64,000 nt of DNA from Prorocentrum cordatum (lineage: Eukaryota): assembly GCA_963575745.1 (NCBI GenBank), contig CAUYUJ010000170.1:62001-126000 (forward strand). Reading direction: 5' to 3'. A program made the translations under genes and the position numbers. The notes beneath the pieces were generated by a model. That model was not told the DNA's origin. It was given only the letters and a program-made list of their open reading frames with translations, and did no database searches. Below, in pieces: positions 278 through 54,085 of this stretch (positions are counted from its first letter, which is position 1; the number at the start of each line of letters is the position of its first letter).

Positions 278-716
278 GGCGAGGGTCGGTCGGGGAGGCC
301 TCAGAGGGTCGGCAGGACGTGCGACGGAGGCAGGCGGGTGCCAGGGCCAAAACGCTTCGAGCAAACATGATGACATGACATTCTTCGTGGTGCTATGTGC
401 GTGCTACAATCTGTGTGGTGCAATCGACGTGGTGCAGCATGTGGTGTGCGAACTGCAGTGTGCCATAGGTATGGCGCCATGAATTTTGTTGCCAACTGCG
501 TGGTGCAGCGTATGCGGTGCAGTCTACGGGGCGCAACCAATCTCTGTTCGCAGTGAGTTGTCCACTCCACTGCTCGCGCAAACATCCCACCCACCCACCC
601 GCAACTTGGTCTGCAAAACCTCTTAAGACCGTGACGGTGGGTACCACATGGCACTTGGCAACGACACCGACGCCGACGACGACGACGACAACGACGACAA
701 CGACGCCGCCGACGAC

Positions 717-737
717 CCGTAGCCATTTTGGCTCAAG
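717..737 (+). other. Dinoflagellate spliced leader (DinoSL) at the 5' end of the LINE
   Basis: Exact CCGTAGCCATTTTGGCTCAAG (DinoSL = DCCGTAGCCATTTTGGCTCAAG), followed by GCCATGG rather than the GT-starting intron of an SL RNA gene. Confidence 0.95.
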
Positions 738-868
738 GCCATGGCGATCCCGACGACCGCGAGTCCTTCGGGCGCCGTCGAGCGCGAGGGACGCCGCGCT
801 TTGGGCCTGCTTCTTGCTTCGTTTTTTCGAGGCGGCGTGGGCAGGCGGAGCGCGCGGGGCCAGCAGCC

Positions 869-2206
869 ATGTCGGGCGACGGAACTGGAGCGCCGCCACC
901 CTGGAGGCGCAGGGTGTACTGGGTCTGCCAGTGCAAGGAGTGGAACTGGTGCGACAAGAGGGCGACCTGCAAGTCCTGCGGGAAGGAGGCGCCAGCGTGG
1001 GCGAAGCGCCTGCGCGCGATGCACCAGCCCCAGGCCGACGGGGAGGGATTCGTCCAGCAGCCCAGGGGGCGCTCGCACCAGCGTGCAGCGCGCCGAGCTG
1101 GTGAGGCCTCCAGGGCAGCCTCGGCCGCCAGCACCGTGCCGAGCAGCGCGCCCAACAGCAGGGTGCGGCCGCGGGGCGGAGCCAAGCCGCCGCCGTGGCG
1201 TGAGGAGCGCGAGGAGCAACCAGAGGAGCCCGCTGCGAGTCTGGAGCGCAGGCTCGAGGGAGCCCAGGCTCGCGTCTCCAGCCTCCGCGAGGCGGTCGCC
1301 ACAGATGGGACCAGCGAGGCCTTCCAGCGAGAGGCCAGGGCGGCCCTCCTCGCAGCGGAGGACTCAGCCGAGAGGGCCGAGGCCGAGCTCCGCGAGGCCC
1401 AGCGGCTCGGGAGGCCCCCCCACGCCGTCCTCCACGGAGGCGCCAACGCCATGCAGAAGGTCGAGAAGCAGATCACTGCAACCAGAGCCAAGCGCGAGCA
1501 GGCCGTGCAGCGGGCTGAGGCCCTCAGGGAGGAGATTGCGGCGATGCAAGAAGAGCTGGCCGAGGCCGAGTCCGCGGTCGAGGACTTCGACAGCCAGCTC
1601 GGCAAGCTCGAGGAGTCGAAGGCTCAGACAGTCCAGCAGGCACTCCAGCGGGCCATTGAGGCGTGCGGAGGCCAGCGGCCCCTGGAGACCGCGGTCGGGG
1701 GCCTCGTCACCCAGGTCAACCAGTTGGGCGAGATGCTCGGCCCTAACTCGGATGGCGTCGCGCCCAGGCTCCTGGAGATCATGGACATCATCACCACGCA
1801 GAGCGCCGCCATCTCGGACATGCTCCACCCCGCTGCGCCTGCTGCCGCTGCCTCGCGCTGGGCCGACGGCCTTGGCGGGGGCGGGCTCGCCGTCGACGAC
1901 GAGGAAGGCTTCCCCGCCCCTGCCGCTGGGGCCTCTGCCCCCGCGGAGCCGCGGCCGCCAGCGGAGGCCGCAGTTCAGCAGGTGCGACCAGGCCCGCCCA
2001 CCCAGCGGGCGAGCCCTGCAGTGGGGCCCTACGGGCCAGCCGCCGCCCGCGGGCAGTCAGGCGCGGCGCTCGGCGCTTGGCCCCAGCCTGGCCAGGCCGA
2101 GCACAGGATCCTTGAGGATGCCAAGGACGAGCACGAGGACGGCCAGGCCTTGGCTACCCTGGCTACTGCTGGGGGCTACGCTCCTATGGGCCCTCGTCGC
2201 CCCTAG
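869..2206 (+). CDS. LINE ORF1 (Cys4 zinc finger + coiled coil)
   Basis: GCCATG start at 869. WVCQCKEWNWCDKRATCKSCG resembles a RanBP2-type zinc finger; long heptad-like E/A/Q-rich region; intact frame upstream of ORF2. Confidence 0.8.
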   Translation: MSGDGTGAPPPWRRRVYWVCQCKEWNWCDKRATCKSCGKEAPAWAKRLRAMHQPQADGEGFVQQPRGRSHQRAARRAGEASRAASAASTVPSSAPNSRVRPRGGAKPPPWREEREEQPEEPAASLERRLEGAQARVSSLREAVATDGTSEAFQREARAALLAAEDSAERAEAELREAQRLGRPPHAVLHGGANAMQKVEKQITATRAKREQAVQRAEALREEIAAMQEELAEAESAVEDFDSQLGKLEESKAQTVQQALQRAIEACGGQRPLETAVGGLVTQVNQLGEMLGPNSDGVAPRLLEIMDIITTQSAAISDMLHPAAPAAAASRWADGLGGGGLAVDDEEGFPAPAAGASAPAEPRPPAEAAVQQVRPGPPTQRASPAVGPYGPAAARGQSGAALGAWPQPGQAEHRILEDAKDEHEDGQALATLATAGGYAPMGPRRP

Positions 2207-5200
2207 CCGCTCGGCTGCAGCGACAGCCTGGGGACCCGCGCCGCCGCCGCCGCCGTCAGACTGGCCGACCGTGCACCAGGCGCGAGGAGGGCCACGGCGG
2301 CAAGGCGGCCTCGCTCCTGGGCCGAGGTGCGGTCGGGGCCGCCGAGGCGTCCCCCCGACGGCCCCGTGCGGGCAGACGGCGGGAGGATTCTGCCCTCCGA
2401 CGTCGCAGCCGTCTGCCCCGCCCCATGGGAGTCGAGGGGCCCCCGCGGGGTTCACGCCAGCCGCCCTTGAGGCGAGAGTGGGCGGGGCTGTGCCGGCTTG
2501 TGAGAGGGCCGCCGCGCAGCTCCGTGCAGGCTTCGACGTGCTGGGCCTCAACGGCAACACATGGGACCGTGCCATGGAGGTGCTCGAGGCCTACATCGCG
2601 CGGGAGGGCGCGCGCCCGCACCTGGTCACGGTTCAGGAGGTCCGCCTTGGGCCCCGCCAGCTGGAGAATGCTCGCCGCCGAGCCCGCGGCTTGGGCTACG
2701 CGGCCTTCTTGCATGCTGCTGCGCCCACTGGACAGGCTGCCCTTGCCCATTCAGGAGGCGTCGGAGTGCTTGCCCGTGAGGACCTTCAGGCGCGGGAGGC
2801 TCAGTGGCGAGTGCCAGGGGACTTCAAGCACCGCGTGATCGCCGTCAGGGTGAAGCATGAAGCTGCTGTCTTGCTCCTTGTACCTGCAGGATGGCCTCGG
2901 GCCCAAAGGTGTCAACTTGGACATCATCGGAGCCCTGGGGGACCTGGTGCTGACCGAGGGGCTGCCTTGGCTCGTGCAAGGCGACTTCAACATGGAGCCT
3001 GGGACCCTCCACGAGTTAGGGTGGCCAGCCCTTCAGCGAGGTGCCTACCTTGGGCCAGCCGGGCCCACATGCATGAGCCGCAGCGGGTGTACGAATGGTT
3101 CGCGAGCTCTTTCTGCCTCTCCCACGGGGTCGCCAACGCCGCCGCCCTGGACGGCTACGCGTTGCACCCGCGCAAGCCAGTCCGACTGCGGCTGCAGGAC
3201 CTGCGGCCAGATGCGCTGGTGCAAGTCCTGGTGAGGCCTGGCCGCTTCCCAGACGTGGAGGCCGCCGACTGCAGGGCCCATGAGGACGCCGTCGTGCAGG
3301 TGTTTCGGCGCAGTGGGCGAGCTCAGTGGCAGGCCGAGGCCTGCAGCTGGAGCTGGGAGGCAGGCGCGGTGCCCCACGACCTGCCTGCTGCAGCGTGTGA
3401 GTGGACGGAGGCGGTCGAGGGCACGTTGGTGGGCATCCACGACATCCAGCCCGCCGCTCACAGGCGCTTCCTGGGCCGAGCCGCGGGGCCGAGGCGCGCC
3501 CTGTAGCCGATGAGCGCGGTCGCGAAGCGAGAGTACCGCTTCCGTCACTCCGAGTTGACCCACGCCATTCGGCAGGCCCTTGACCTGGCTCTGCAGAGGC
3601 TGGCCGCCGATAGGAGTGAGAGGTGGCGGCCGTCGCACGAGGGCTGGTACTCGCGCGAGGCGGAGCGCATCACGGGCCTCCTTGGGCTCGCCACGGCTGC
3701 GGCCCGCGAGGAGGAGGAGGCGGAGCAGCTCGCCTTCGACACCAGCGGGTGGAGCGACCTCGTCGGCCAGGCAGGAGTCCACGGCCACGTCGGCGCCATC
3801 GCGGAGCTCCAGCGACGGCTTTACAGCTCGCAGCGGCGCGACGGTCGTAACAGCTCCGCGCGGTGGCGCGCTTGGGCCAAGGAGGCCGTCCAGCGAGGAG
3901 GCAGGCTGGCGCACCGCTTTGCCAGAGCGGTGCCGCCTCCCCAGGTCGTCGATCCTGACACGGGCATGCCGCTGGCAGGTATGATAGCTATTGGGCAGCT
4001 GGAGGCCAACTGGCAAGCCCTCTGGCAGCAGGAAGGCTTCAAGGGAGGAGCCGACGTCGGCACCTGGGACGTCCAGGACTGGACCCTGCCTCCCATCACG
4101 CTCGACATGTTCCAGGCGACGTGCCGCCGCTACGCGCCTTCTGCAGGGCTCGGAGCAGACCAGCTACACCCTAGACAGCTGCTGCCCCTGCCGCGTGCCC
4201 TCCAGCTCCGCTGCCTGGACCTCCTCGCGGCGCGCGAGGAGCGGCCGCAGGCGCTGGGGGCCTTCGCGACGATGATCGTGTTCATCCCGAAGCTGGATGG
4301 GGGCATCCGCCCCATTGCCCTCATTCCGCCTCTTCTTCGGGTGTGGAGCCGTGTTCGGCAACCTACTTGTGCGCAGTGGGAGTCCACCCACAACTTCCAG
4401 TTCTTCTGGGGCAGGGAAGGCAAGGGCTGTGAGAAGGCGGGTTGGATGCACAACCTTCTTGCCTCGGCTGCCCGCCATGCCGGCTTTGAGGTTGGCAGCC
4501 TCTTCCTGGACATTGTGAAGTTCTACGAGAATATTCGGCATGACGTGTTCTGGAACTGCGCCACCGAGCACAATTTCAATCTTCGGTTATTGAGGGGGCT
4601 TTTGGCCTTGTATTAAGCCCCATCGCTTCATCTGTTTCGCGGGCCTGGTCTCCGACGACTTCAGCTCGCAGGGCGCCGTCCTCGCGGGCTGTGCGCGTGC
4701 TACTACGCTGGCCAATCTGCCGCTCCTCGGACCCCTTCGCGCCGTGTCTTCAGGAGGCCGCCTGCTCGTCATTGGCAGGAACGTCGTCGACGATGTGGCC
4801 CTTCAAGCACTGGGAACTCGTCGCCTTGTCGTGGAGCAACTTGGCGGCGCGGGAGCGGAGATGGCGCGGCAGCTCGGGGGCTTGCACCTCCCGCTCAGCG
4901 CCAAGAAGTCCGTGTACCTTGCGTCCTGCTCTGGCCTGGCCCAGGAGCTGGGCGAGTACTGGAAGGCGCGCGGCATGAAGTTCGAGAGAGCTCACCAAGC
5001 CCGCAACTTGGGCACGGATGCGAGCATCACGATGAGAGGAGTCCGCGAAGGGCGAGGGCGGGCGCGGGACGCGCTCCAGCGTGCGCGGCGCCTGCGATGC
5101 CTTCGAGCGGCAGGAGTCGAGGTGGACCTGATCCACAAGGCTGGGCCTACTTCCAGTATGGCATGGGGGCGGACGGTTACTGGCGTGGCCGACGGAGAGT

Positions 5201-7421
5201 TGCACAGTTGGCGAGTCACCGCGTGCCGCAGCGCTGGGCGGCCCCCCCGCGGCGCGGCCCTCGGCCTCAGGCTGCGGCGTGCGGAGCTCCGCAGGGGCCG
5301 CGACCTGGATCCGCTCGTGCTGATCACGGATCGCTCGCTCCAGATGCTGGCAGGGCTTTTGCACTCGGGCGAGCTCTCCCTGCCGATGCTCAGGGGCGAG
5401 CTCGAGGCTGCAGCTTCGCGGCAGGCGGCAGCAACGGCGCCCTGGGTGCACTGCAACTCCCCCGTGGATGCAGCTGTCCTCACCCTGGGCAGGATCGGCT
5501 GGCACTTCAGGTCCGAGCGGTGCCTCATCACGGACGTCGGGGGCGTGCTGGACTTGACGCTGTTGGGGCCGCGCGAGCTCGGCATTGAAGCCGGCCTTGG
5601 GGCGAGGCGCGCCTCGAATCGACGCGAGATGCAGAAGCTGGCCAGCGCCTCTTCTTTGCAGGGTTCTTTCTTCTGGGACGCCTTCAAGGAGCTCATCGGG
5701 CCAGGAGGCAAGTTCAGCGAGCGCGAGAGGAACGGGCTGGTCGCCTACCTCACGAACGCGCACTGGCCGCCGGCGAGGCTCCACGGCGCCCGCGAAAGCG
5801 GCCACGCCCGCTGCAGATGCTGCGGAGCCGCGCGGGGCACCCTCTGGCACAGATTGTTCGAGTGCCCCATGCTTGCGGCCCAGCGGAGGGACTCGGTCTC
5901 GCCAGCGCTGATGAGGAGCGCTGTGCGGGTCCGCGCCCAGGGAGAGGCAGCAGGGGGGGACTTCGCTCGGCGCTGGCTGCCAGCGCCGCCGCCTCCTCAA
6001 GGGCCTCGCACGGACGCCATGAGCGTCTGGTGGATACGCAGGCCTCCCGACGACAAGCTCAATGGCAAGTTGTACTTGGACGGCTCGGCGGTCGACCCGC
6101 AGTTCGGCTCCTTGAGGCGCGCGGGCTGGGCGATTGCTGCAATGCGACGACGACGGCAACCTCATCGCGGGCGTCTACGGGACCGTCAGGAGGGACCTCT
6201 GTCCACAACAAACCGCTCGTGACGCTGAGGACTTCGCGGTCTGGATGATGGTGAACTACGCGGGCCCTGCAGTCGAGGAGGTTAACATCGACTGCCACGG
6301 CACGGTCGAGTGCTTGCGTAAGGGGCTGGCCTATGCGACGGGCCCGACCAAGGCCAACGCCCACCTCTGGAGCAGGAGCCTCGCCGCCTTCGAGCCTGGC
6401 AGCTTCAGGGTGAACAAGGTGCCCGCCCACTGCAGCAGGCAGGCGGTGCTCGACGGGCGCCTCACGGAGGCGCAGTGGCGCGGCAACCTGCACGCCGACC
6501 GCCTCGCCAAGCTGGGAGCACGGCTGCGCGCCGTGGACGCCCAGACCGTGGGCGAGCACCGCGCCTTGGCGGGATTCGTCCAGGAGCTGGCCCGCTGGGT
6601 GGGCCAGGCGGCGGTCCTCTGGCAGAACATCGCGGAGAAGGACAGTGACAGCTTCCTCGAGTCCGACGAGAGGCAGCGGGTGAGGTTCGCCGACCAGGAG
6701 GAGCGGGCCGAGCTGCCCACTGCAGGCAGGCCGACGGCGCAGCAGCCGCAAGTGGAGAGCGTCCGCTCGGTGGCCAGCGCGGTTGGCCTCTCCATCACCA
6801 CGGCTGGCATCTGCTACCTCGGCCACTCCCTGTCGTACGCGTGCTGCGACGTGGGCGAAGAGTCCCAGGAGCTGGTGGCGTGCGGCAAGTGCGGCGCCTA
6901 CATGGTCCTTGGTGGCCGCTCTGGAGGCCGCCCAAAGCTCAAGGAGCCGTGCATCGGCGAGAGGGCCACTGGGCAGCGCAGCCAGCGCCGCCTCTGGGCT
7001 CGAGGGCTACACCCGGCCGGGTGGACGACCACGCGGAGGAGACCAGCAGCGCAGGGAGAAAGGGGTTGAAATCCCCGCGCTGAGGCTGCAGGGGCCACTG
7101 CCCCCAGCGGCCCAAGAGGCCTTCCTGGCCTGGCTGGGCCTCGAGGGCGAGGAGGCTCCCTCGGCAGCAGGTGGCAGCTCAGCAGCAGCGACGGGAGGAG
7201 CAGGCGGCTGCGAGCAGGTGCCAACGACGCGGCCGACGGCGGCAGTGCAGCAGGTGGCGGCGGGCAGCGCCCCGTGGGCCGCCATGCTGGCCGCGTACGG
7301 CCTGGACGAGCAGGACCTCGCCGAGCGGGTGCTGTCCGCCAACGCCGCCGTGGAGGACCGCCGCGTCCGCCCGCGGCGCGGCCGCGGCCCGCGCCCTGGC
7401 GGCGAGAGCTCGGGCGAGTAG
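2207..7421 (+). pseudogene. LINE ORF2: AP endonuclease, reverse transcriptase, RNase H, C-terminal Cys/His cluster; frameshifted
   Basis: APE motifs LNGN, VQEVRL, GGVGVL, GDFNM. RT motifs GADQLHP, FIPKLDGGIRPIAL, LDIVKFYE, GAVLAGC, NVVDD. Zn motif CRCCGAARGTLWHRLFEC. RNase H motifs LYLDGSA, RAGWAI, TARDAE, NIDC, KVPAH, GNLHADRLAK. Frame changes near 2865, 3085, 4615, 6140 and 7050, plus an in-frame TAG at 3504. Start position uncertain. Confidence 0.9.
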
Positions 7422-7479
7422 GCTGCTCGCCTGGAGTCGCCTTCATGGCCCCGCGAATCGAATCGACGCCGCCGACGAC

Positions 7480-7528
7480 GACTATGACGACACCGACGAC
7501 GTCTCCAACGACTTCGACGACGCCGACA

Positions 7529-7565
<37 letters not shown>

Positions 7566-7760
7566 CGACGAAATAGGAGGGACGACGACGAAACGCCGAC
7601 GAAGACGACGAGGGAGGAAGGACGACCATGGCGACAACGACGACGGAAATGACGACGACGCCAAGACGACGACGACGACGAGAAAGACAAAGGACGACGA
7701 CGGCGACGACGACGACGACGAGGAGGGAGGAGTGAGGACGGCGACGACGACGACGACGAC
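7480..7760. repeat. (GAC)n degenerate microsatellite, continuous with 660-716 before the LINE insertion
   Basis: GACGAC runs on both sides of the LINE. Confidence 0.9.
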
Positions 7761-9139
7761 GCAAGAGCGCGCGCGCACGCTTTTGTTGAAAGTCCGTGTT
7801 GCGGAACCTTTTGTGTTTGTATGTTGTTTGGGACACTCGATTTTGAAATCCTTCCGAAACCGAAGGTTTTTTTCAAGGATTCCGGCATGCGCACGCGACG
7901 ACACGCGCGTGCGCACTTCGTCCCGTTGTTTGCAAGGGATTCTCGCGACGGCACGCGCGCAAAGGCGTTCGAAAGATTTCGACATGCGCGCGCGAAGCCC
8001 GTTTGGTAGCATGTCTAGAAAATCTGGAATGACCAACGATTTTCTTCAGATTCCGCAAGAGCGCGCGCATATTTTTTTGCATAATCAATATTGCGAAACC
8101 ATGGTTTTTATATGATGTTTGGAAAGTCGGTTTTGAAGTCCTTCCGACATCGTTGGTTTTTGAAAGATTCCGGCATGCGCGCGCGACGACGCGAGCGTGC
8201 GCACTTCGTCCCCATTTGTTGCCAGGGATTCTTGAAAACTTATGATTCTTGATAAGCGAGAGTGCGCGCATAGCATTTGTTGCAAAGGATGGCGGGTGGG
8301 AGGTGATACCGGTTTGGCTGGGATCGTACGAGCTCCTATTTAGGATGGACGATGGGGCATAAACGTATGCAAATTGCAATTCGAAAAGGTGTATCGTTAA
8401 TTCCGGGGGGGGTCCATTCTTCTTTTAGAGAGGAGAATATGTGTTATGCTATCTACGTTGCGCAGACCATGTAGTGTATCGACGTGATGCAATCTATGTG
8501 GTGCACACTATGTTATGCTGTTCACCCTGTCGAATTTGAAGTTGTTGCTTCCGATGCTTGCGCAATCATCCCACCCACCCACCCACCCACAAATTGGTTT
8601 GCAAAACCCATGCAGCGGTGATTGCGATGACTGCTTGGCGCTGCTGGCACATTGTTGCGATCGCGCTAGCGCGCACAGGCTGGCGCACAGAGCGGCCATC
8701 TAATCTAGCGCGACCGACGCGGCCAAGGTGGCGCCGACCGCTTGGCACTTCCAAACGCGTGTCGCGCGCTGGCCCGCGGGCACTTCAGTGCGAGTCGGTG
8801 ATTCGGGCGGGCGCGGTATCATGGCGACGTCGACAAGGGCACACACGGTGATGATAGTAGCGACGCTGGTGACGACGATGACGATGACGACGGCAAGGCC
8901 AATGAAAGCGAGGATGATGATCACGTCGGTGGCGATGATGGTGTCCACGTGTCGGTAGTGAAGGTTCCGGCAGGATTTCGGCATGCGCACGCGGCCGACG
9001 GGCGCGAGTGGCCCGCATGGCATGATGATGTGCCAGGGATCGCACCCCCCCAACACGCTGGAAAGGGCGTTAGAATGAATTCGATCTGCGCGCGCGAAAA
9101 GTCCGTTTGGTCGCCTTGCATGGCCATGTTGAAATTAAC

Positions 9140-45207: not shown

Positions 45208-45307
45208 NNNNNNNNNNNNNNNNNNNNNNNNNNNNNNNNNNNNNNNNNNNNNNNNNNNNNNNNNNNNNNNNNNNNNNNNNNNNNNNNNNNNNNNNNNNNN
45301 NNNNNNN
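45208..45307. other. Assembly gap (100 N)
   Basis: Run of N. Confidence 1.
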
Positions 45308-46620
45308 TCGCTGGTCGACACTCTGCATCCGACTCCATGCCGTAGGAGGTGGGGACAAAGCCACGAAGTCTGGGTCCACTGCGACCAGGTACGCCCGTGC
45401 CTCGTTCCTGCCCTGGACCGTCAGGAGGTCGAACTCTGGCGCTGCGATGGGCTGGTGGGCGTCCCATCCCATGCTCGCCGCCAGGATCGTGAGTTGGCAA
45501 GCCCATGCGAAGACCTCTACGATCCTCCAGGGCCCCGGCCGCCGCCGGGTCTCCTTCTGAAAAGGCAGTGCACGTTCCTCCTGGTAGTATCTGAGGGCGT
45601 CCTGCTCCTGCTGATCAGCCCGAAGCTTCCTGTTCGCCATTTCCTCGGTCATCAGAACCTCCAGCTCCTTCAGGTTGCTCCGGACGTGCCTGCGAGCACC
45701 TTTCGTCATGAAAACCTCGTTGTCCGCGTTCTCCATGAAAACCTCCTCGTCACTCGATGCCGTCTCCGCGGACTCTGGGTCGCTGGTGTGATAGTGGGAT
45801 GTGCTCAGCTCTGAGTCGCCTGCGCCCTGGCCGTCGTTGCTGTCAGAATCGTGCGAGTCCTCCTCCTCGACGGTCTCAGCGACGCTGCGCTCATCCTTCT
45901 CCTCGTGACTCGCAATTCCGCTGAACATCTCGTCTGCGAGCTCGTCCTGCTCCTCGGACTGTCCGACGGGGAAGGCACTCGTGACCGGTGCCGGGAAATC
46001 CAGCAATGACACGCACGGATGCCCGGACGCAGCCGGGACCAACGGCTTGGTCACACCATTCGCCGTGAAAGTACCGTTCCTGAAGCTGATTGCTGCGCCC
46101 CACTCTGCCATCTCATCAGGGCCGATGAGACCTGGCACCTCGGCATCGACCTCGGAGATCACAACTTCGCCCTGCGTACCGTTGATGCCGACTGTGTAGC
46201 ACCACGCACGCTCTGACAAGAGCGGCACGCCTGGGCCGAACTTGAAGTACTCGCGCTGATTGATGCTGTGGCACGGCACGCCCATGGCATCCAAAGTCTT
46301 CTGCAGCTCGACATGCCACAGACGTCCACCGACAGCCCGCTTGCAGCCCGTGTCAATCATAGCCAGCCCCGCGGGCAAGACAACAAGCATGACGGACTGC
46401 TCATCTACCACCTTGCGGGGGCACTCCTCTCGGGTGGTGACCATGTGGGCCGCAGATCCCCCTTTTGCTGCCCAAGGGTCTGCGCCCTTTGCTGCCCAGG
46501 GGTCCGCGCCCCCTTTGACGGCAACATCCTCCCCAGTCGGGGCGGCAGAGGTTAGTCCTGGCACAGCTCCGTCTGGGGTGTTCTTGGAAGGTTCCCCTTC
46601 ATCCTTCTTGGGCTTCTCCA
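45308..46620 (-). CDS. Pol N-terminus: retroviral-type aspartic protease, acidic linker, start of a DNMT-like domain
   Basis: GLAMIDTGCKRAVGG..W, FKFGPG and VPGLIG are protease motifs; WRIVEVFAW...GW...FDLL...PDFVALSPPPTAWS resembles C5-MTase motifs I-IV. Confidence 0.75.
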
Positions 46621-49600
46621 CGTGTAATGAATCACCGACTTCAGCGAACACTTCTTGCACTTCGCGAAGATCACGGTGCCGTTTGACTGCCACTTCAACT
46701 CGCCCACAGGATGAACACATTCAGCCTGCTGCTGCATGAGCTCGGGGTCGAACTTCGCCTTCGGGCCTGGAACCAGCCTCTCGCCGTCGAACTGCGAGTC
46801 GTACTTGGCTCGATGCATCTGCTGCTTCTCCAGGTCACTCTGCGTGGCACCGACACTCATGACGTAGCTCCGTCCAGAGGCGGTGACTACACGCGGGACT
46901 CCAGATGCAGCTGAAGATTCCGTCGCAGCGGCAGGGGCACCTGAGCTCGCGGCTCCTGGAGGCGCTGGAAGGTGGACACGCCGTCGTATTGCCTCCATGT
47001 TCTTCCACACGCTTCCGACTCCCTGCTGCTCAGGAGATGTGGGCAGGGCGCGCTCTGGCAGAGGTGCCTGCTCACGTCGCTTCTGTAGGCCGTCGTAGAC
47101 CTCGCATGGGTTCAATCGGGTGTGCATCTCCATCTCCTGTTTCTCTATCAGCGCGAGGCGATCCAGCAACTCAGCTTTATCACGCTGCAAAACCTCTAGT
47201 CGCTTCTTTTCCTCGCTCTTTCTCACTTCCTCGGAGGCTCCTGCCATGACCCAGTCCTCTTCCTTAGGGACAGCGGCGGCCTCCCCAGTCAGAGCGGCAG
47301 ACGTTAGTCCAGGCACAGCTCCGTCTGGGGATTCTTTGGTCTTCGATGCTCCCTTTGCCGACGCCTCCACCACGTATACGGGATGGGCCCTCGCAGGGCC
47401 GCTGGATAAGGAGAAATCTGGCTTCTCGCAGCGGCGCGTGTAGAGATTGAGGCGCACGATGCGATCGTTCTTAGTGATGAAGTGGATGGTTGCCGGCGGC
47501 GTCAGGTAATCCCTGAAGACATCCTGACGCGGATGCCAGCTGCAGAAGATCTCGTCCATCTCTTCTGGCGTGAACGGCACCTCCTTATCCTCACGCCGCT
47601 GGTCGTTGTCGTCCTCGGTGGCCTCAGGATCCTCGCTGGCCTCGTCCTCGTTCTTCACCTCCTTGCTGCTTCTTGCCTTCTTTCTCTCTTTCTTCTCTTC
47701 TTTGCTGCTCCTCGCCTTCTTCTTCTTCTTCTCTTTCTTTTCTTCCTTTTCTTCCTTCTCACCGCGGTCTTCTAGTGGACTCCGCTTCTCTTTCTTCACA
47801 CCGCGGCCTCCTGGTGCACTCCGCGACCTTGAACGCGAGGAAGCCTCCGCCTCGGGCGGAGGAGGGGCACGAGGCTCGCGAAGAACAGCTCCCCGATCAC
47901 GCTGGCGGTCGTCCCGACGATCTCGATGATGATCTTCACGCTGCTTGGTGTCACGACTCCCGCCTTCACCGCGCCGATCGTCACGGGGCTTGGTATCACG
48001 ATTGCCGCCCATCACGATCTTGAATATAGTTGCCGTGATCTCGTCGAGATCCACCTCAGCCGCCGCACAAGGCCTCGATGTGGCCAGCTGCAGGCGCACG
48101 AGCCGACCCTGGACGAAGTCGAGGCTCTCGAAGCGGCCTTGCTTGAAGAAGATAGGCTTCTTGTTCGCCACGCGCTCCACGATGTGATGGACCGTGGCAA
48201 GGTCAGGAAACTCCAACTCCACGCTGTGCCCCTTTGCGTGGGTGTTGGCCAGAATGCGATGGCAACGCTCGACAGCATCCTCGTCCTCCTGATCCTCCCC
48301 GCGCCTGGCACGGGCGCGCGCGCGTTCATCACTGCTCTGTGCGGCCCCTGGGCCGTCGTCGGCGTCCTGGCGTAGGCTCGGCGCAGGCATGCTTATGGGC
48401 CTGGGGTGCATAATGATCCGCTCTGGCGCGTCCGCTCGACCCTCCACTGGATGCCTCTGGGCAGGCACCGACTGGGGGGCACGGCGCCATGGAGCGCGGC
48501 CACGACGCTCCTCGGCACTGCCTGCCATGCCAACCCAGTGGACGATCGGTCCATGCACCTGCCTAGGCGCCGGCGGCTTCACAGAGGTCCGCTGGTTGGG
48601 CGACGCTGGCTGGCCATTCTTAGGCCCGATCTTGTTGTAAGGCTCGCGCTCGCCACTCTTCACCTTGGGGCACTCCGGGTCGCCACGCCAGTGGCCAGGC
48701 TGATCGCAGTCAGCACACCGGCTGTTAGCCTTGCGCTGGTCTGTCGGCTTCCGACCAGCCTGGAAGGAGCCGCTAGCGTTGATCTTCTTGGGGTCCCGCT
48801 GCCGAGGAGCAACGAACCCGCGCTTCTGACGCTGTACCGCCGTCTTCTGCTTGGCCCTCCAGCCGGCCAAGAACGCTTCCTGAAGATCCTCCGGTGCCTC
48901 GTACTCCTCGTCGCCAGGCCCGTCGTTGTCCGACACCAGCTCCTCGTCGACCTCAGCGCCGTCCTCGAAGAGGGTACCCTCGGCCCCTCCATGGTCTCCA
49001 TCGTCCTGGTCGTCTGCTTCATCTTCGTCATGATGCGCCTCCTCGAGGTCGCCGTGGTGTTCATCGTAGTCTTCGCCGTTCTCTACCTCGTGTACGTGCT
49101 GGCCAGGGCGTCCTCGCAGCACGCATGGCCTACGAGCCATGGGAGGGTGCGGATAGCGACCGCCCGAACTCCCAGAGGAGCGCCCGTGCTCACGCTGCGC
49201 CGCAAACGGCGAGCGGCGAGGGAGCACTGAGCGATTCTCGGTGTCGTGCACCTTCGAATAGGCTGCCTTCAGCATAACCTCCATCCGCTTCGAGTCGTAG
49301 ATGCCGCCACAGTTGAAGAGCACCTGCGCTCGCTCCTTCTGCGACAGTCCAGCGCCACGAAGCATCTTGCTTGCCAATGCGCGATCGCTGATCGCTGATG
49401 TGGGATCCTCGAGCTGCAACTCCATGAGCTTCTTGCGCAGGTACGTGGTCCAATCCATGATCGGCTGCCCAGCTCGACGGTGTGCTCGCTCCCAATCCTG
49501 ATGCACCTGATCGAGGCGCTCGTGATCCATCTTCTCGAAGGCGTCGTCGTAGATAGCAAAGATGGTCTCGAGCGTCTCCTCGCGTCGGAGGTCCGACGCG

Positions 49601-49947
49601 TCAAGCACCTCGATGAGCTCTTTGGCTCGACCTGTCACTTGACTGTAGATGATCAGGCCCAGCTCCGCGTCTGAGAGCTGATTGAGGTTGCGGATGACTT
49701 CAACCTCCTTGCGCCACTCTCGGTACTTCTTAGTACTCGTACCGACTCCACCATCGAACTCTGGGAGCCTCACCTGCAACAGCAGTAGACGTGTACGTCT
49801 GGGACCGCCGTCGCCACGATCCCGATGCAAGGCCAAGAGCTCCCGCTGGGTCTCGGCCATCACGCGCAGGACTGCATGCAGGTCCGGGGGACCTGTGCCT
49901 GCGGAGGACGCAGCCTCCACATCTGAGCCGTCTTGGCTGGCGGCCAT
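46552..49947 (-). CDS. Gag-like polyprotein (1131 aa)
   Basis: LPEFDG...YREWRKEV, KMLRGAGLSQKERAQVL, zinc knuckle CADCDQPGHWRGDPEC; GCCATGG start. Confidence 0.85.
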   Translation of the reverse strand: MAASQDGSDVEAASSAGTGPPDLHAVLRVMAETQRELLALHRDRGDGGPRRTRLLLLQVRLPEFDGGVGTSTKKYREWRKEVEVIRNLNQLSDAELGLIIYSQVTGRAKELIEVLDASDLRREETLETIFAIYDDAFEKMDHERLDQVHQDWERAHRRAGQPIMDWTTYLRKKLMELQLEDPTSAISDRALASKMLRGAGLSQKERAQVLFNCGGIYDSKRMEVMLKAAYSKVHDTENRSVLPRRSPFAAQREHGRSSGSSGGRYPHPPMARRPCVLRGRPGQHVHEVENGEDYDEHHGDLEEAHHDEDEADDQDDGDHGGAEGTLFEDGAEVDEELVSDNDGPGDEEYEAPEDLQEAFLAGWRAKQKTAVQRQKRGFVAPRQRDPKKINASGSFQAGRKPTDQRKANSRCADCDQPGHWRGDPECPKVKSGEREPYNKIGPKNGQPASPNQRTSVKPPAPRQVHGPIVHWVGMAGSAEERRGRAPWRRAPQSVPAQRHPVEGRADAPERIIMHPRPISMPAPSLRQDADDGPGAAQSSDERARARARRGEDQEDEDAVERCHRILANTHAKGHSVELEFPDLATVHHIVERVANKKPIFFKQGRFESLDFVQGRLVRLQLATSRPCAAAEVDLDEITATIFKIVMGGNRDTKPRDDRRGEGGSRDTKQREDHHRDRRDDRQRDRGAVLREPRAPPPPEAEASSRSRSRSAPGGRGVKKEKRSPLEDRGEKEEKEEKKEKKKKKARSSKEEKKERKKARSSKEVKNEDEASEDPEATEDDNDQRREDKEVPFTPEEMDEIFCSWHPRQDVFRDYLTPPATIHFITKNDRIVRLNLYTRRCEKPDFSLSSGPARAHPVYVVEASAKGASKTKESPDGAVPGLTSAALTGEAAAVPKEEDWVMAGASEEVRKSEEKKRLEVLQRDKAELLDRLALIEKQEMEMHTRLNPCEVYDGLQKRREQAPLPERALPTSPEQQGVGSVWKNMEAIRRRVHLPAPPGAASSGAPAAATESSAASGVPRVVTASGRSYVMSVGATQSDLEKQQMHRAKYDSQFDGERLVPGPKAKFDPELMQQQAECVHPVGELKWQSNGTVIFAKCKKCSLKSVIHYTWRSPRRMKGNLPRTPQTELCQD

Positions 49948-50013
49948 GGCGGCCCACGCGGGTGGTCACAACCACCGAAGCAGAGCACGCAGTGCGTCCG
50001 CTGGAGCTTACTA

Positions 50014-52541: not shown

Positions 52542-54085
52542 CGACGGCATGCTGTCTCTTGGGAGCATCTTGAGCCTCTCCCAGGCCCTCCTTGGGCCGT
52601 CTCGTGGCTCTCTTAGGCTGTCTCGGGGCCCTTTTGGGTCGTCCTCGGGCCGTCATGGCACAATCTCGGGGGGCCCTGGAGCTGTATCGGGCCGCTCTTG
52701 ACCGAAAAACGAGAGGCTGGAAACCTTCACAAACCTAAAGACAACAACGGTTTTTGCGTCGTCTGGCGCTTTGGGGGGTCCTCTCGGGGGCCGCTTGGGG
52801 TGTCTTGGAAGCAACTTGGGCTGTACTGAGGCCATTTTGGGCTATCTTGGATCGCTCTTGGGCCGTCCTCGGGCCCGTCTGGGCCTCTCTTACGCCGTCT
52901 GGTGCCTTAAGCTGGCGAGGAGCTGGCGCGCTTACGCGGAGCTTACGCGAGCTTACGCAGAGATCACGCACCCGTAAACAGGGAATCCCATGTTAACAAG
53001 CACCTGACCCCGCTCAGGCACCCGTTAACAGGGAATTTACACTTTCATGTTAACAAGGCCCCTCGCTCAGGCACCCGTTAACAAAGAATACTATGCAATT
53101 TCCCTGTTAACGGGTGCTTGAGCCCGCTCAAGCACCCGCCTTTCCATGTGAAAGGCCCCGTTAGAACCGTGCCCAACGAAAGCGGGCTCGAGCACGAAAG
53201 CGGCAGCGCGCAACAGTGGCTGGCCAGGTTAACGCCACCCCATCGGAGGGGGCTGGACGGGCAGGCGAAAAGGGAGGAAAGGAGGGGAGGAGGGGGGACG
53301 AGGAGGGAGATGACCGCTGCGCACAACGCGCGGCGAAAACTCACTGGGCGAGGGCGCGGCCGCGGGGTGTGAGCCACCCGGCCCCGCGCGCCCGCGCCTT
53401 AAAACGAGGACAGGGGGAGGACGGGGAGGAGGAGGAGGCGGAGGAGGAGGAGGAGGAGGAGGAGAAAAAGGGAGAGAACTCGGGGTCCTCGTGGTCCGCG
53501 GCCCACGTTGGTCTTGCCGCTGACGCACGAGCACCGCGCGCGTTCGCCCGCCGGCGGGCTATGCGCGCAGTGCAACCATTAGATCCTGGGACGTGGGATG
53601 CCCCCCCATCAAACTCCCCATAGTTTCATTCCTTCTGGCTAACGGATAGCACGCTACGCGCGCATTCCGGAGTCCGGTTTGCGCCCCCCTCGCCCCTCTC
53701 CTGGACCCCTCCCTAGAGGGCTCCGCCCCACCAAAACGTCATCACTTCGTACCTCGCTATTTCCGTTATCGGGCCCGCTTGGGAACCTCTTGGGGCCCTT
53801 TTGGGGCTCTCTTGGGGCCGTCTGTGGGCCCTCTTGGGCCGTCTTGGGGCCCTCTTAGGCCGTCTGGAGGCCCTCTTGGACTGTTTTGGCCCCCCTTGGG
53901 GCACTTCTGGGGCCGTCTTGTGATGATCTTTGGGTCATCGGGGGCCCTCTTGAGGGCCTCTGGAGCCGTCTCGAGGCTCTCTTGGACTGTCTGGAGGCCA
54001 TATGAAGCTCTCTTGGGGCCGTCTTGGGGCCCTCTGAAGCCGTTTTGGGGCCCTCTTGGGCCGTCTTGGGGCCCTCTGGCCAGCT
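50285..54085. repeat. Patches of degenerate ~11-bp satellite (TCTTGGGGCCC/TCTTGGGCCG)n
   Basis: Blocks at about 50290-50520, 51440-51850, 52560-52900 and 53780-54080; reverse complement of the CCAAGA satellite. Confidence 0.8.
50670..50965. repeat. ~44-bp tandem repeat
   Basis: CTCTTGGGAGCCTTGGTG...GTCACC repeated about 7 times. Confidence 0.85.

What the first reader, a model, noticed from the sequence alone, without database searches (positions are those of the whole stretch)
701..7479. Full-length LINE whose 5' end is exactly the dinoflagellate spliced leader
Seen: TSD (701-716), then perfect CCGTAGCCATTTTGGCTCAAG (717-737), the ORF1/ORF2 body, (CGAAT)2, and the same 16-bp TSD (7464-7479). 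The SL lies inside the TSD pair and is followed by GCCATGG rather than an SL-RNA intron. Known: DinoSL is trans-spliced onto nuclear mRNAs, and SL-gene-targeting elements (CRE/SLACS, NeSL) use a restriction-like endonuclease, whereas this element has an APE. Inference: the retrotransposition template was an SL-capped RNA. The element may not need an internal promoter, regenerating a precise 5' end by trans-splicing from read-through transcripts, with the integrated SL's terminal AG as the acceptor in the next round. It is also a candidate for the machinery that produces SL-relic retrogenes.
Basis: partly seen in the sequence, partly recalled or inferred. Interest (0 to 1): 0.92.

Follow-up and report, generated by a model that had tools for sequence, protein, structure and literature searches.

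The report
LINE copy starting with spliced leader
A dead 6.7-kb jumping gene in a dinoflagellate genome begins exactly with the short leader that this group of algae splices onto its messenger RNAs, which shows it was copied back into DNA from a mature, leader-capped RNA.

Summary
Window 717-7463 is an APE+RT non-LTR retrotransposon. It begins with 21 of the 22 nt of DinoSL, ends in (CGAAT)2, and is flanked by an exact 16-bp duplication inside a split (CGA)n microsatellite.

This copy is not intact. It has two in-frame stops and at least three frameshifts.

Its relatives form a diverged multi-copy family; 34 of 36 long relatives are annotated Prorocentrum cordatum. A public-run contig of a roughly 5%-diverged subfamily starts at the same SL base.

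A second, unrelated and intact LINE turned up in a mis-binned MAG contig (G001:C12). It has the same architecture: RanBP2-finger ORF1, then APE-RT-RNase H. It also starts with SL nt 2-22 and sits in a (GA)n microsatellite.

So the core inference is well supported: reverse transcription of an SL-trans-spliced element mRNA by target-primed integration.

Two further ideas remain untested but are not contradicted. One is a promoter-less life cycle that re-uses the encoded SL's AG as the splice acceptor. The other is that these LINEs produce the SL-relic retrogenes.

In my literature searches I found no description of SL-headed LINE copies. Related facts are known, namely SL-relic retrogenes and SL-spliced TE transcripts in Hydra. 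I rate it a new variant of a known kind, of moderately high interest.

The parts
668..716 (+). left part of the interrupted (CGA)n/(GAC)n microsatellite (target)
   Evidence: TRF period 3, 16.3 copies
701..716 (+). 5' copy of the 16-bp target-site duplication CGACGCCGCCGACGAC
717..737 (+). DinoSL nt 2-22, the exact 5' end of the element
   Evidence: unique in the window, 0 of 100 shuffles
738..868 (+). 5' UTR. An ATG at 741 (GCCATGG) opens a 921-codon frame-0 reading that runs into the APE frame; probably not the real ORF1
   Evidence: A run contig is identical over 717-807
869..2206 (+). ORF1 (445 aa): N-terminal RanBP2-like CxC..CxxC finger (nt 920-979), then a coiled-coil-like region
   Evidence: Colinear with the N-termini of P0151 (96.8% identity), P0006 and P0160. 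Sources name relatives 'RanBP2-type domain-containing'. No Pfam family above cut-off in this copy
2547..3008 (+). apurinic/apyrimidinic-type endonuclease domain of ORF2 (frame 0)
   Evidence: Pfam Exo_endo_phos E 1.4e-6, 28.7 bits, cut-off 24.5
3504..3506 (+). in-frame TAG. Other copies read A at 3504 (AAG, Lys)
   Evidence: 3 contigs of X1, all of the depth. P0001 has K here
4284..5100 (+). reverse transcriptase, split by TAA 4614-4616 and a +1 frameshift near 4623 (frame 0 to frame 1). The end coordinate is approximate
   Evidence: RVT_1 E 1e-5, 25.8 bits, below the 29.6 cut-off, on 4284-4580. Motifs continue in frame 1. Relatives P0017, P0019, P0012 and P0047 pass the RVT_1 cut-off
6080..6560 (+). 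RNase H-like region (DGS ... ADRLAK motifs, my reading), split by a +1 frameshift near 6139. Coordinates approximate
   Evidence: One relative is named 'RNase H type-1 domain-containing' by a source. Only a weak alignment to the Pfam-confirmed RNase H of L140 (E 0.048)
7017..7020 (+). 4-nt insertion relative to other copies (frame 2 to frame 0)
   Evidence: left out in all covering depth of X1 and X2
7419..7421 (+). stop codon of the last ORF2 frame piece
7454..7463 (+). 3' tail (CGAAT)2; other copies carry one more unit
   Evidence: CGAAT put in behind 7453 in X1 and X2
7464..7479 (+). 3' copy of the 16-bp target-site duplication
7464..7761 (+). right part of the interrupted (CGA)n tract
   Evidence: TRF period 3, 97.7 copies

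Best explanation
Window 717-7463 is one genomic copy of an APE-type non-LTR retrotransposon. ORF1 has a RanBP2-like zinc finger and a coiled coil. ORF2 has APE, RT, an RNase H-like region and a C-terminal Cys motif. Its closest relatives are annotated Prorocentrum cordatum.

The copy was made by target-primed reverse transcription of a mature element mRNA that had received the host spliced leader by trans-splicing. The inferred steps are:
1. The endonuclease nicked a (CGA)n microsatellite.
2. The nicked strand primed on the (CGAAU)n RNA tail through CGA microhomology.
3. cDNA synthesis ran to nt 2 of the SL.
4. A second nick 16 bp away produced the duplication.

Shown: the anatomy, the exact position of the SL, the domains, the multi-copy family, and a second independent SL-headed LINE.
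Inferred: the order of the TPRT steps, and that the SL was added by trans-splicing rather than transcribed from a DNA-encoded SL.

The copy has since decayed, or was copied from an already defective RNA. It cannot move by itself.
For: 1. The SL sits at the exact 5' end, inside an exact 16-bp duplication, with a LINE-type short-repeat tail at the other end. There are no LTRs or inverted terminal repeats.

2. APE and RT domains are present. All 13 relatives examined (5, 8) align colinearly across 869-7358.

3. The family is multi-copy and old. There are 851 library proteins at E<=1e-3 and 34 at E<=1e-30. Of 36 long relatives, 34 are named P. cordatum, each seen on 1 contig, at 44-96% identity.

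4. In run X1, a 289-nt contig (depth 20.4) starts exactly at 717 and runs to 1014. It is identical over 717-807, then differs at 14 positions and by a 9-nt deletion. So a diverged subfamily carries the same SL-UTR junction, and the shared sequence stops at the SL's first base. Other copies carry (CGAAT)3.

5. Independent case, G001:C12 (9096 bp, 70% GC): (GA)n, then SL nt 2-22 at 117-137, then ORF1 with Zn_ribbon_RanBP (E 1.6e-7), then an intact 2536-codon ORF2 with Exo_endo_phos (5.1e-9), RVT_1 (4.5e-11) and RNase_H (2.8e-7; human RNase H1 in PDB at 7e-6), then A6, then (GA)n. Its ORF2 is only 25-28% identical to distant members of the protein set.

6. The SL-element junction falls exactly at the SL exon end, with no SL-RNA intron. 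SL-RNA genes show SL followed by GTAC....
Against: - No RNA evidence was available: no RNA run was listed, and the run kinds are only guessed as 'DNA?'.
- The window's own genome is not held, so I could not make a census of full-length copies with and without SL. Support from other copies rests on one short contig and one (possibly two) foreign contigs.
- The duplication lies in low-complexity DNA.
- This copy is defective. It may have been mobilised in trans and need not represent the family's normal cycle.
- A DNA-encoded SL that is simply transcribed would give the same DNA picture.
Confidence: 0.85

Rival explanations
1. Promoter-less, self-renewing head. The family has no internal promoter. 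Copies that land in sense orientation in the long host transcription units are read through. A fresh SL is trans-spliced onto the AG that ends the DNA-encoded SL. Each cycle therefore restores one exact SL, a cap and a defined 5' end.
For: - There is no tandem SL relic in the window copy, in G001:C12 or in L135.
- The X1 contig runs unbroken from 717 and shows no branch at the internal AG of the SL.
- No sequence upstream of the SL is shared between copies.
- No Rfam ribozyme or other RNA family was found in the window.
- Exact replacement would be invisible in transcript-based relic surveys, which detect only truncated relics (PMC12014239 passages).
Against: - Nothing here tests transcription or splicing.
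- A few master copies with a native acceptor would give the same picture.
- Published relics point to the internal AG (giving CCATTTTGGCTCAAG) or a TG as the usual re-splicing sites (PMC12014239; L130), not the terminal AG.
Confidence: 0.35
2. The DNA-encoded SL is only an inherited 5' terminal sequence, captured once. It serves as, or sits beside, a promoter: the TTTT motif proposed for DinoSL relicts. Transcripts start at or near it without new trans-splicing.
For: Song et al. 2017 propose that TTTT-type motifs in retained DinoSL relicts act as promoters of retrogenes (PMC5585692 abstract and passages). A diverged subfamily has an identical SL-UTR junction.
Against: Initiation at a TTTT box inside the SL would lose the first SL bases in progeny. 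Yet two unrelated elements both start at SL nt 2, and the X1 contig starts there as well. Independent capture of the same 21 nt by unrelated LINEs is just what ongoing trans-splicing predicts.
Confidence: 0.1
3. A one-off processed retrocopy. An occasional trans-spliced read-through transcript of a defective LINE was retroposed in trans, like any SL-relic retrogene. The family normally propagates without SL.
For: This copy has 2 stops and at least 3 frameshifts. About half of the X1 depth shares its extra base at 6139 (8.92 of 18.2 lack it), so at least one lesion may predate the insertion.
Against: The X1 contig of a different subfamily starts at the SL. The intact G001:C12 element has the same head.
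Confidence: 0.1
4. The SL comes from the target (insertion into or beside an SL-RNA gene or an older relic), or from template switching of the RT onto SL RNA at the end of cDNA synthesis, as in U6/L1-type chimeras.
For: Site-specific LINEs in SL genes are known (SLACS/CRE/NeSL; recalled). LINE-1 chimeras with small RNAs are known (bioRxiv 10.1101/2025.02.02.635956, abstract in the listing).
Against: - The SL lies inside the duplication, and the restored target is a continuous (CGA)n tract.
- The endonuclease is APE-type.
- No SL-RNA intron follows the SL.
- A switch onto the ~50-60-nt SL RNA (length recalled) should bring intron sequence between the SL and the element.
Confidence: 0.03

Closest known systems
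DinoSL-relic retrogenes ('mRNA recycling'). Slamovits & Keeling 2008 is recalled and known to me only as cited; Song et al. 2017 PMC5585692 and PMC12014239 were read as passages
   Same: A DNA-encoded DinoSL at the 5' end of a retro-copied transcript. Song 2017 even found the GO term 'RNA-dependent DNA replication' enriched among DinoSL-bearing genes, so RT genes with an SL were implicitly seen.
   Different: Here the retro-copied transcript is the retrotransposon itself. Its ends are fully defined: a complete SL nt 2-22, a TSD and a LINE tail. The passages I read describe neither TSDs nor a LINE head, and they leave the machinery open. PMC6050394 favours Ty1/copia.
SL-gene-specific non-LTR elements SLACS/CZAR/CRE (trypanosomatids) and NeSL-1 (nematodes); recalled, not tested
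   Same: Non-LTR retrotransposons physically associated with spliced-leader sequence.
   Different: Those elements carry a restriction-like endonuclease and insert into SL-RNA genes, so the SL comes from the target. This element has an APE, sits in a microsatellite, and carries the SL inside its TSD.
LINEs that cut their 5' end out of co-transcripts with an HDV-like ribozyme (L1Tc, R2). Abstracts of PMC3185411, PMC3383444 and PMC4035085 seen in the listing
   Same: A possible functional analogy: a precise element 5' end made by RNA processing of a host read-through transcript instead of exact initiation.
   Different: The processing here would be host SL trans-splicing, which also supplies a cap. 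No ribozyme family was found.
Hydra transposon transcripts with trans-spliced leaders (PMC12220107, passage)
   Same: About 30% of TE Iso-Seq reads carry the host SL, so TE mRNAs using host SL trans-splicing is documented.
   Different: That is RNA-level evidence in a cnidarian. The passage does not report genomic TE copies that begin with the SL.
Microsatellite-targeting APE LINEs (for example Waldo, Mino, Kibi/Koshi, Dong); recalled, not tested
   Same: Both SL-headed LINE copies seen here lie in microsatellites, (CGA)n and (GA)n, and the window tail shares CGA with its target.
   Different: With only two insertions, target specificity is not established. No phylogenetic relation was tested.

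Membership tests
APE-type non-LTR retrotransposon (LINE) | reverse transcriptase domain of the RVT_1 type | tested here: met
   The window piece scores RVT_1 E 1e-5 but 25.8 bits, below the 29.6 cut-off, because the domain is split by a frameshift. Colinear relatives P0017, P0019, P0012 and P0047 pass the cut-off.
APE-type non-LTR retrotransposon (LINE) | apurinic-type endonuclease N-terminal to the RT | tested here: met
   Exo_endo_phos 28.7 bits against a cut-off of 24.5, at nt 2547-3008, upstream of the RT.
APE-type non-LTR retrotransposon (LINE) | no LTRs or terminal inverted repeats; flanking target-site duplication; A-rich or short-repeat 3' tail | tested here: met
   One search found no terminal repeats. 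16-bp TSD. The (CGAAT)2 tail varies in copy number between copies.
APE-type non-LTR retrotransposon (LINE) | assignment to a named clade (L1, I, Tad1, Ingi, R1 and so on) by RT phylogeny | not tested
   No reference RT set was available. PDB sequence searches found nothing significant for A2 and P0002 (no hits) or for P0017 (one hit at E 0.55). The APE-RT-RNase H order is shown only for G001:C12.
SL-gene-specific LINEs (CRE/SLACS/NeSL) | restriction-like endonuclease C-terminal to the RT | tested here: not met
   The endonuclease is APE-type and N-terminal.
SL-gene-specific LINEs (CRE/SLACS/NeSL) | insertion within an SL-RNA gene, with the SL supplied by the target | tested here: not met
   The SL is inside the TSD, the target is (CGA)n, and no SL intron follows.
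DinoSL-tagged retrocopy (mRNA recycling) | DNA-encoded DinoSL directly at the 5' end of a transcript-derived insertion | tested here: met
   The same holds in G001:C12.
DinoSL-tagged retrocopy (mRNA recycling) | truncated relic SL(s) downstream of a newly added SL in transcripts | not testable with these tools
   No RNA run was listed. No relic is present in the DNA of the window copy.

The most novel reading that the evidence does not exclude
A group of dinoflagellate LINEs (RanBP2-finger ORF1; APE-RT-RNase H ORF2) has given up its own promoter. It lives off host read-through transcription plus SL trans-splicing. The DNA-encoded SL at the head of each copy supplies the acceptor AG, so every cycle renews one exact, capped SL. 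The same microsatellite-seeking TPRT machinery acts on other SL-capped mRNAs and is the long-sought source of the SL-relic retrogenes, which make up about a fifth of dinoflagellate genes.
Probability: 0.3. Interest if true: 0.85.

Novelty: new variant of a known kind. Interest (0 to 1): 0.64.

Why it matters
Dinoflagellate genomes are full of retro-copied genes that carry spliced-leader relics. The enzyme system that makes them has stayed open since 2008; reviews read here leave it open or favour Ty1/copia.

A LINE whose own full-length copies carry the SL inside a target-site duplication is direct DNA evidence of two things. An APE/RT target-primed machinery in these cells copies SL-capped RNAs to within one base of the cap. 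And it integrates them with a recognisable signature: a TSD, a microsatellite target and a short-repeat or A tail.

That signature can now be looked for at retrogenes, which makes the question testable.

It also suggests how a transposon can be expressed in a genome with few conventional promoters: by borrowing host read-through transcription and trans-splicing.

Tried and rejected
- Own genome: not held.
- Second copy in the window: none by blastn or tblastn, including with 179 relatives.
- SL relic fragments in the window: none, apart from a chance 10-mer at 52831.
- Earlier findings of this scan: nothing.
- RNA evidence: no RNA holder listed.
- Empty-site-like joints 700->7464, 703->7467 and 696->7467, and possible 5'-truncated joints 697->3708 and 701->3707, appear. 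They lie in (GAC)n low complexity with short sides, so I do not count them.
- JGI metagenome contigs: the 26-nt 5'-UTR pattern gave 0 hits. The family alignment A2 gave 599 pattern matches, none confirmed.
- IMG/VR with A2: 33 pattern matches, none confirmed.
- The first alignment, A1, was too diverse to search with.
- IMG/VR SL scan: 119 stretches, none with a LINE relative.
- Near-length protein search for the RT piece: none.
- Cluster look-up: switched off.
- PDB by sequence: no hits for A2 and P0002; one insignificant hit each for P0017 (E 0.55) and the L135 ORF2 (E 0.44).
- L140 homologue search: 1 unnamed hit.
- Another copy of the G001:C12 element in G001: only itself.
- Rfam on the window: 0 families.
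- 3' ends or TSDs of the SL-headed retrocopies L120, L123 and L134: not inside their contigs.
- L135 as a third SL-headed LINE: only Exo_endo_phos_2 at E 6e-4, below cut-off. I keep it as 'possible'.
- Rejected: that the 921-codon frame-0 ORF from ATG 741 is ORF1. Relatives align to frame 2 there.
Full report
**What is in the sequence**

Window 661-716 is a (CGA)n-type tract that ends in CGACGCCGCCGACGAC (701-716). Bases 717-737 read CCGTAGCCATTTTGGCTCAAG and are followed by GCCATGG. At the other end the sequence reads ...CCCG CGAAT CGAAT (7454-7463), then the same 16-mer (7464-7479), and the (CGA)n tract goes on. TRF reports (CGA)n at 668-716 and 7464-7761.

The 21-mer is nt 2-22 of DinoSL as quoted in PMC7245778. 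It is unique in the window at up to 3 mismatches, with 0 of 100 shuffles matching.

The 16-mer has only these two exact copies in the window. Because the flanks are one microsatellite, seven other 16-nt matches of pure (CGA)n exist between them. The duplication therefore rests on three points. It has a GCCGCC interruption. It abuts both ends exactly. And the triplet phase is restored if the element and one copy are removed.

There are no LTRs or inverted ends and no Rfam family.

**What the body encodes**

ORF1 (869-2206) has an N-terminal CxC..CxxC finger and a coiled-coil-like middle. Pfam finds Exo_endo_phos in 2400-3503 (E 1.4e-6, above cut-off) and the first half of RVT_1 in 3507-4616 (E 1e-5, below cut-off).

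The RT continues in another frame. All 13 relatives I examined (5, 8) align colinearly in the frame order 2, 0, 1, 2, 0.

Compared with P0001, and with contigs of other copies, this copy carries the following lesions:
- TAG at 3504-3506. Others read A at 3504: 3 contigs, all of the depth.
- TAA at 4614-4616.
- One extra base near 4623.
- One extra base near 6139. It is absent from 8.92 of 18.2 depth.
- Four extra bases at 7017. They are absent from all covering depth in X1 and X2.

So the copy is complete in structure but dead in coding.

**The family**

An exhaustive profile-free search found 851 proteins at E<=1e-3 and 34 at E<=1e-30. Of 36 long relatives, 34 are named Prorocentrum cordatum by NCBI, each seen on 1 contig, at 44-96% identity. 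Source names include RanBP2-type, RNase H type-1 and endonuclease/exonuclease/phosphatase domain proteins. RVT_1 passes its cut-off in 4 of the 11 relatives scanned, and Exo_endo_phos in 4 of 11.

**Do other copies start with the SL?**

The window's own genome is not held, and there is no second copy in the window.

I laid four public runs on 601-7600. All four are Logan contigs whose kind is guessed as 'DNA?', and none is on record as RNA. X1 covers all 30 bins and X2 covers 28 of 30, with short contigs mostly 85-99% alike. This marks a repeated family.

One X1 contig (289 nt, depth 20.4) begins exactly at 717 and runs to 1014. It is identical to the window over 717-807, then differs at 14 positions and by a 9-nt deletion. 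A de Bruijn contig that starts at the first SL base is what is expected if several copies share sequence from that base on and differ upstream. If X1 is in fact RNA, the contig would instead mark a transcript 5' end. Either reading supports an SL head in a subfamily about 5% diverged from this copy.

Other copies carry one more CGAAT unit. An internally deleted form (2844 joined to 5124; 3 contigs) also exists.

**An independent case**

A scan of GTDB genome contigs for the 21-mer gave 20 stretches in mis-binned MAG contigs. When I searched all 138 loci with 179 relatives, only L132 matched.

The whole contig, G001:C12 (L140, 9096 bp, 70% GC), reads as follows:
- (GA/GACA)n at 1-116.
- SL nt 2-22 at 117-137, again preceded by C.
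- ORF1 at 231-1343 with Zn_ribbon_RanBP (E 1.6e-7).
- An open 2536-codon frame at 1358-8968 with Exo_endo_phos (5.1e-9), RVT_1 (4.5e-11) and RNase_H (2.8e-7; human RNase H1 in PDB at 7e-6).
- A short 3' UTR.
- A6 at 9001-9006.
- (GA)n again.

Its ORF2 is only 25-28% identical to distant members of the protein set. So a different, intact LINE of the same architecture has the same head and also sits in a microsatellite.

L135 (43% GC) may be a third case: SL, a 96-nt UTR, a 266-aa ORF, and an open-ended ORF with a sub-threshold endonuclease match.

**Interpretation**

The SL is inside the duplication, joins the element exactly at the SL exon end, and is followed by no SL-RNA intron. SL-RNA genes show SL followed by GTAC.... 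The endonuclease is APE-type.

Insertion into an SL gene is therefore excluded. Template switching onto SL RNA is unlikely.

The simplest account is target-primed reverse transcription of an SL-trans-spliced element mRNA that stopped one base short of the cap-proximal nucleotide. Both LINE heads lack SL nt 1.

Whether the encoded SL is then re-used remains open. It could serve as the acceptor (exact replacement, no relics) or as a TTTT-type promoter as proposed for retrogenes (PMC5585692). Or only a few master copies may be productive. The lack of relics in the heads seen, and the unbranched X1 contig, fit the first and the third options.

Among 9 SL-headed retrocopy-like stretches with readable upstream sequence, 4 abut microsatellites (L120, L123, L132, L134), as does the window copy. 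This fits a shared integration machinery. But contigs tend to end in microsatellites, and simple repeats are abundant in dinoflagellates (PMC3229502), so I treat it only as a lead.

**Literature**

I ran five full-text searches. I read passages of PMC12014239, PMC3229502, PMC7245778, PMC8045281, PMC11453091, PMC5890265, PMC10666404, PMC3942190, PMC5585692, PMC6050394, PMC9651163 and PMC12220107. None describes a LINE whose genomic copies begin with DinoSL.

The nearest reports are:
- Enrichment of 'RNA-dependent DNA replication' among DinoSL-bearing genes (PMC5585692).
- LINEs with a DNMT ORF1 in Symbiodinium, with no mention of SL (PMC5890265).
- About 30% of Hydra TE Iso-Seq reads carrying an SL (PMC12220107).

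Subscription papers, including Slamovits & Keeling 2008, and supplements were not read.

**Verdict**

The core inference is well supported and extends to a second element. The life-cycle and retrogene-machinery claims are plausible and now testable, but they are not shown.

Noticed in passing
IMG/VR loci L001-L119 (for example L012, L020, L024, L051, L106): The exact DinoSL occurs in 119 stretches of 'viral' contigs, mostly giant-virus MAG bins with median GC 0.20. Of 124 distinct contexts, 119 are preceded by A (a full 22-nt SL) and by recurrent AT-rich motifs such as TAAATATAAATTTTA or TATTTTACTAAACCA. In 103 of 124, the first ATG (median 49 nt downstream) opens an ORF of at least 100 aa, against 40 of 500 random controls. 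This looks like DNA-encoded SL mimicry at the start of many genes of an AT-rich giant virus, or of an AT-rich SL-using eukaryote. Pfam on 39 ORFs gave DUF4116 repeats, CCCH fingers, ABC_tran and RING, but no virus hallmark. Two literature searches found SL mimicry proposed only for an RNA virus.
   Followed up: partly
L067 (IMG/VR contig, 5319 nt): This contig encodes a picorna-like RdRP_1 (E 4.5e-7) and ends exactly in the DinoSL, on the sense strand of the ORF. It is either an SL-headed RNA-virus-like transcript or an endogenous viral element. Compare the 'molecular mimicry' idea quoted in PMC9651163.
   Followed up: no
L120, L123, L134 (GTDB MAG contaminant contigs): SL-headed retrocopies whose SL directly abuts a microsatellite: (GT)n, (TCA)n and (GACA)n. 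Their ORFs have no Pfam family, and their 3' ends are not in the contigs. L120's first ORF weakly resembles the N-termini of P0014 and P0002 (E 1e-4).
   Followed up: partly
L130 (near the contig end): A classic tandem relic array: SL followed by two CCATTTTGGCTCAAG units. It is a useful contrast to the single SL on the LINE heads.
   Followed up: no
window 2844-5124: Three contigs of run X1 (depth 30.8) join 2844 to 5124 with one A between them. This is an internally deleted, presumably non-autonomous derivative of the family.
   Followed up: no
window 717-775: Summed contig depth in X1 is 301.5 at 770 but 43.9 at 775, and a loose end lies behind 765. The SL plus the first ~50 nt of the 5' UTR may be shared by more elements than the body is.
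   Followed up: no
window 741-3506: The first ATG after the SL (GCCATGG) opens a 921-codon frame-0 reading that overlaps the whole of ORF1 and runs into the APE frame. This is probably an effect of 70% GC, but the upstream ATG is conserved in the X1 contig.
   Followed up: partly
window 46555-49965 (- strand); 45208-45307: A 1137-codon open frame with no Pfam family at E<=0.01, and a run of 100 N.
   Followed up: no
window 717-7463 against the rest of the window: The element is 70% GC, against about 59% for the rest of the window. The unrelated G001:C12 element is also 70% GC.
   Followed up: no
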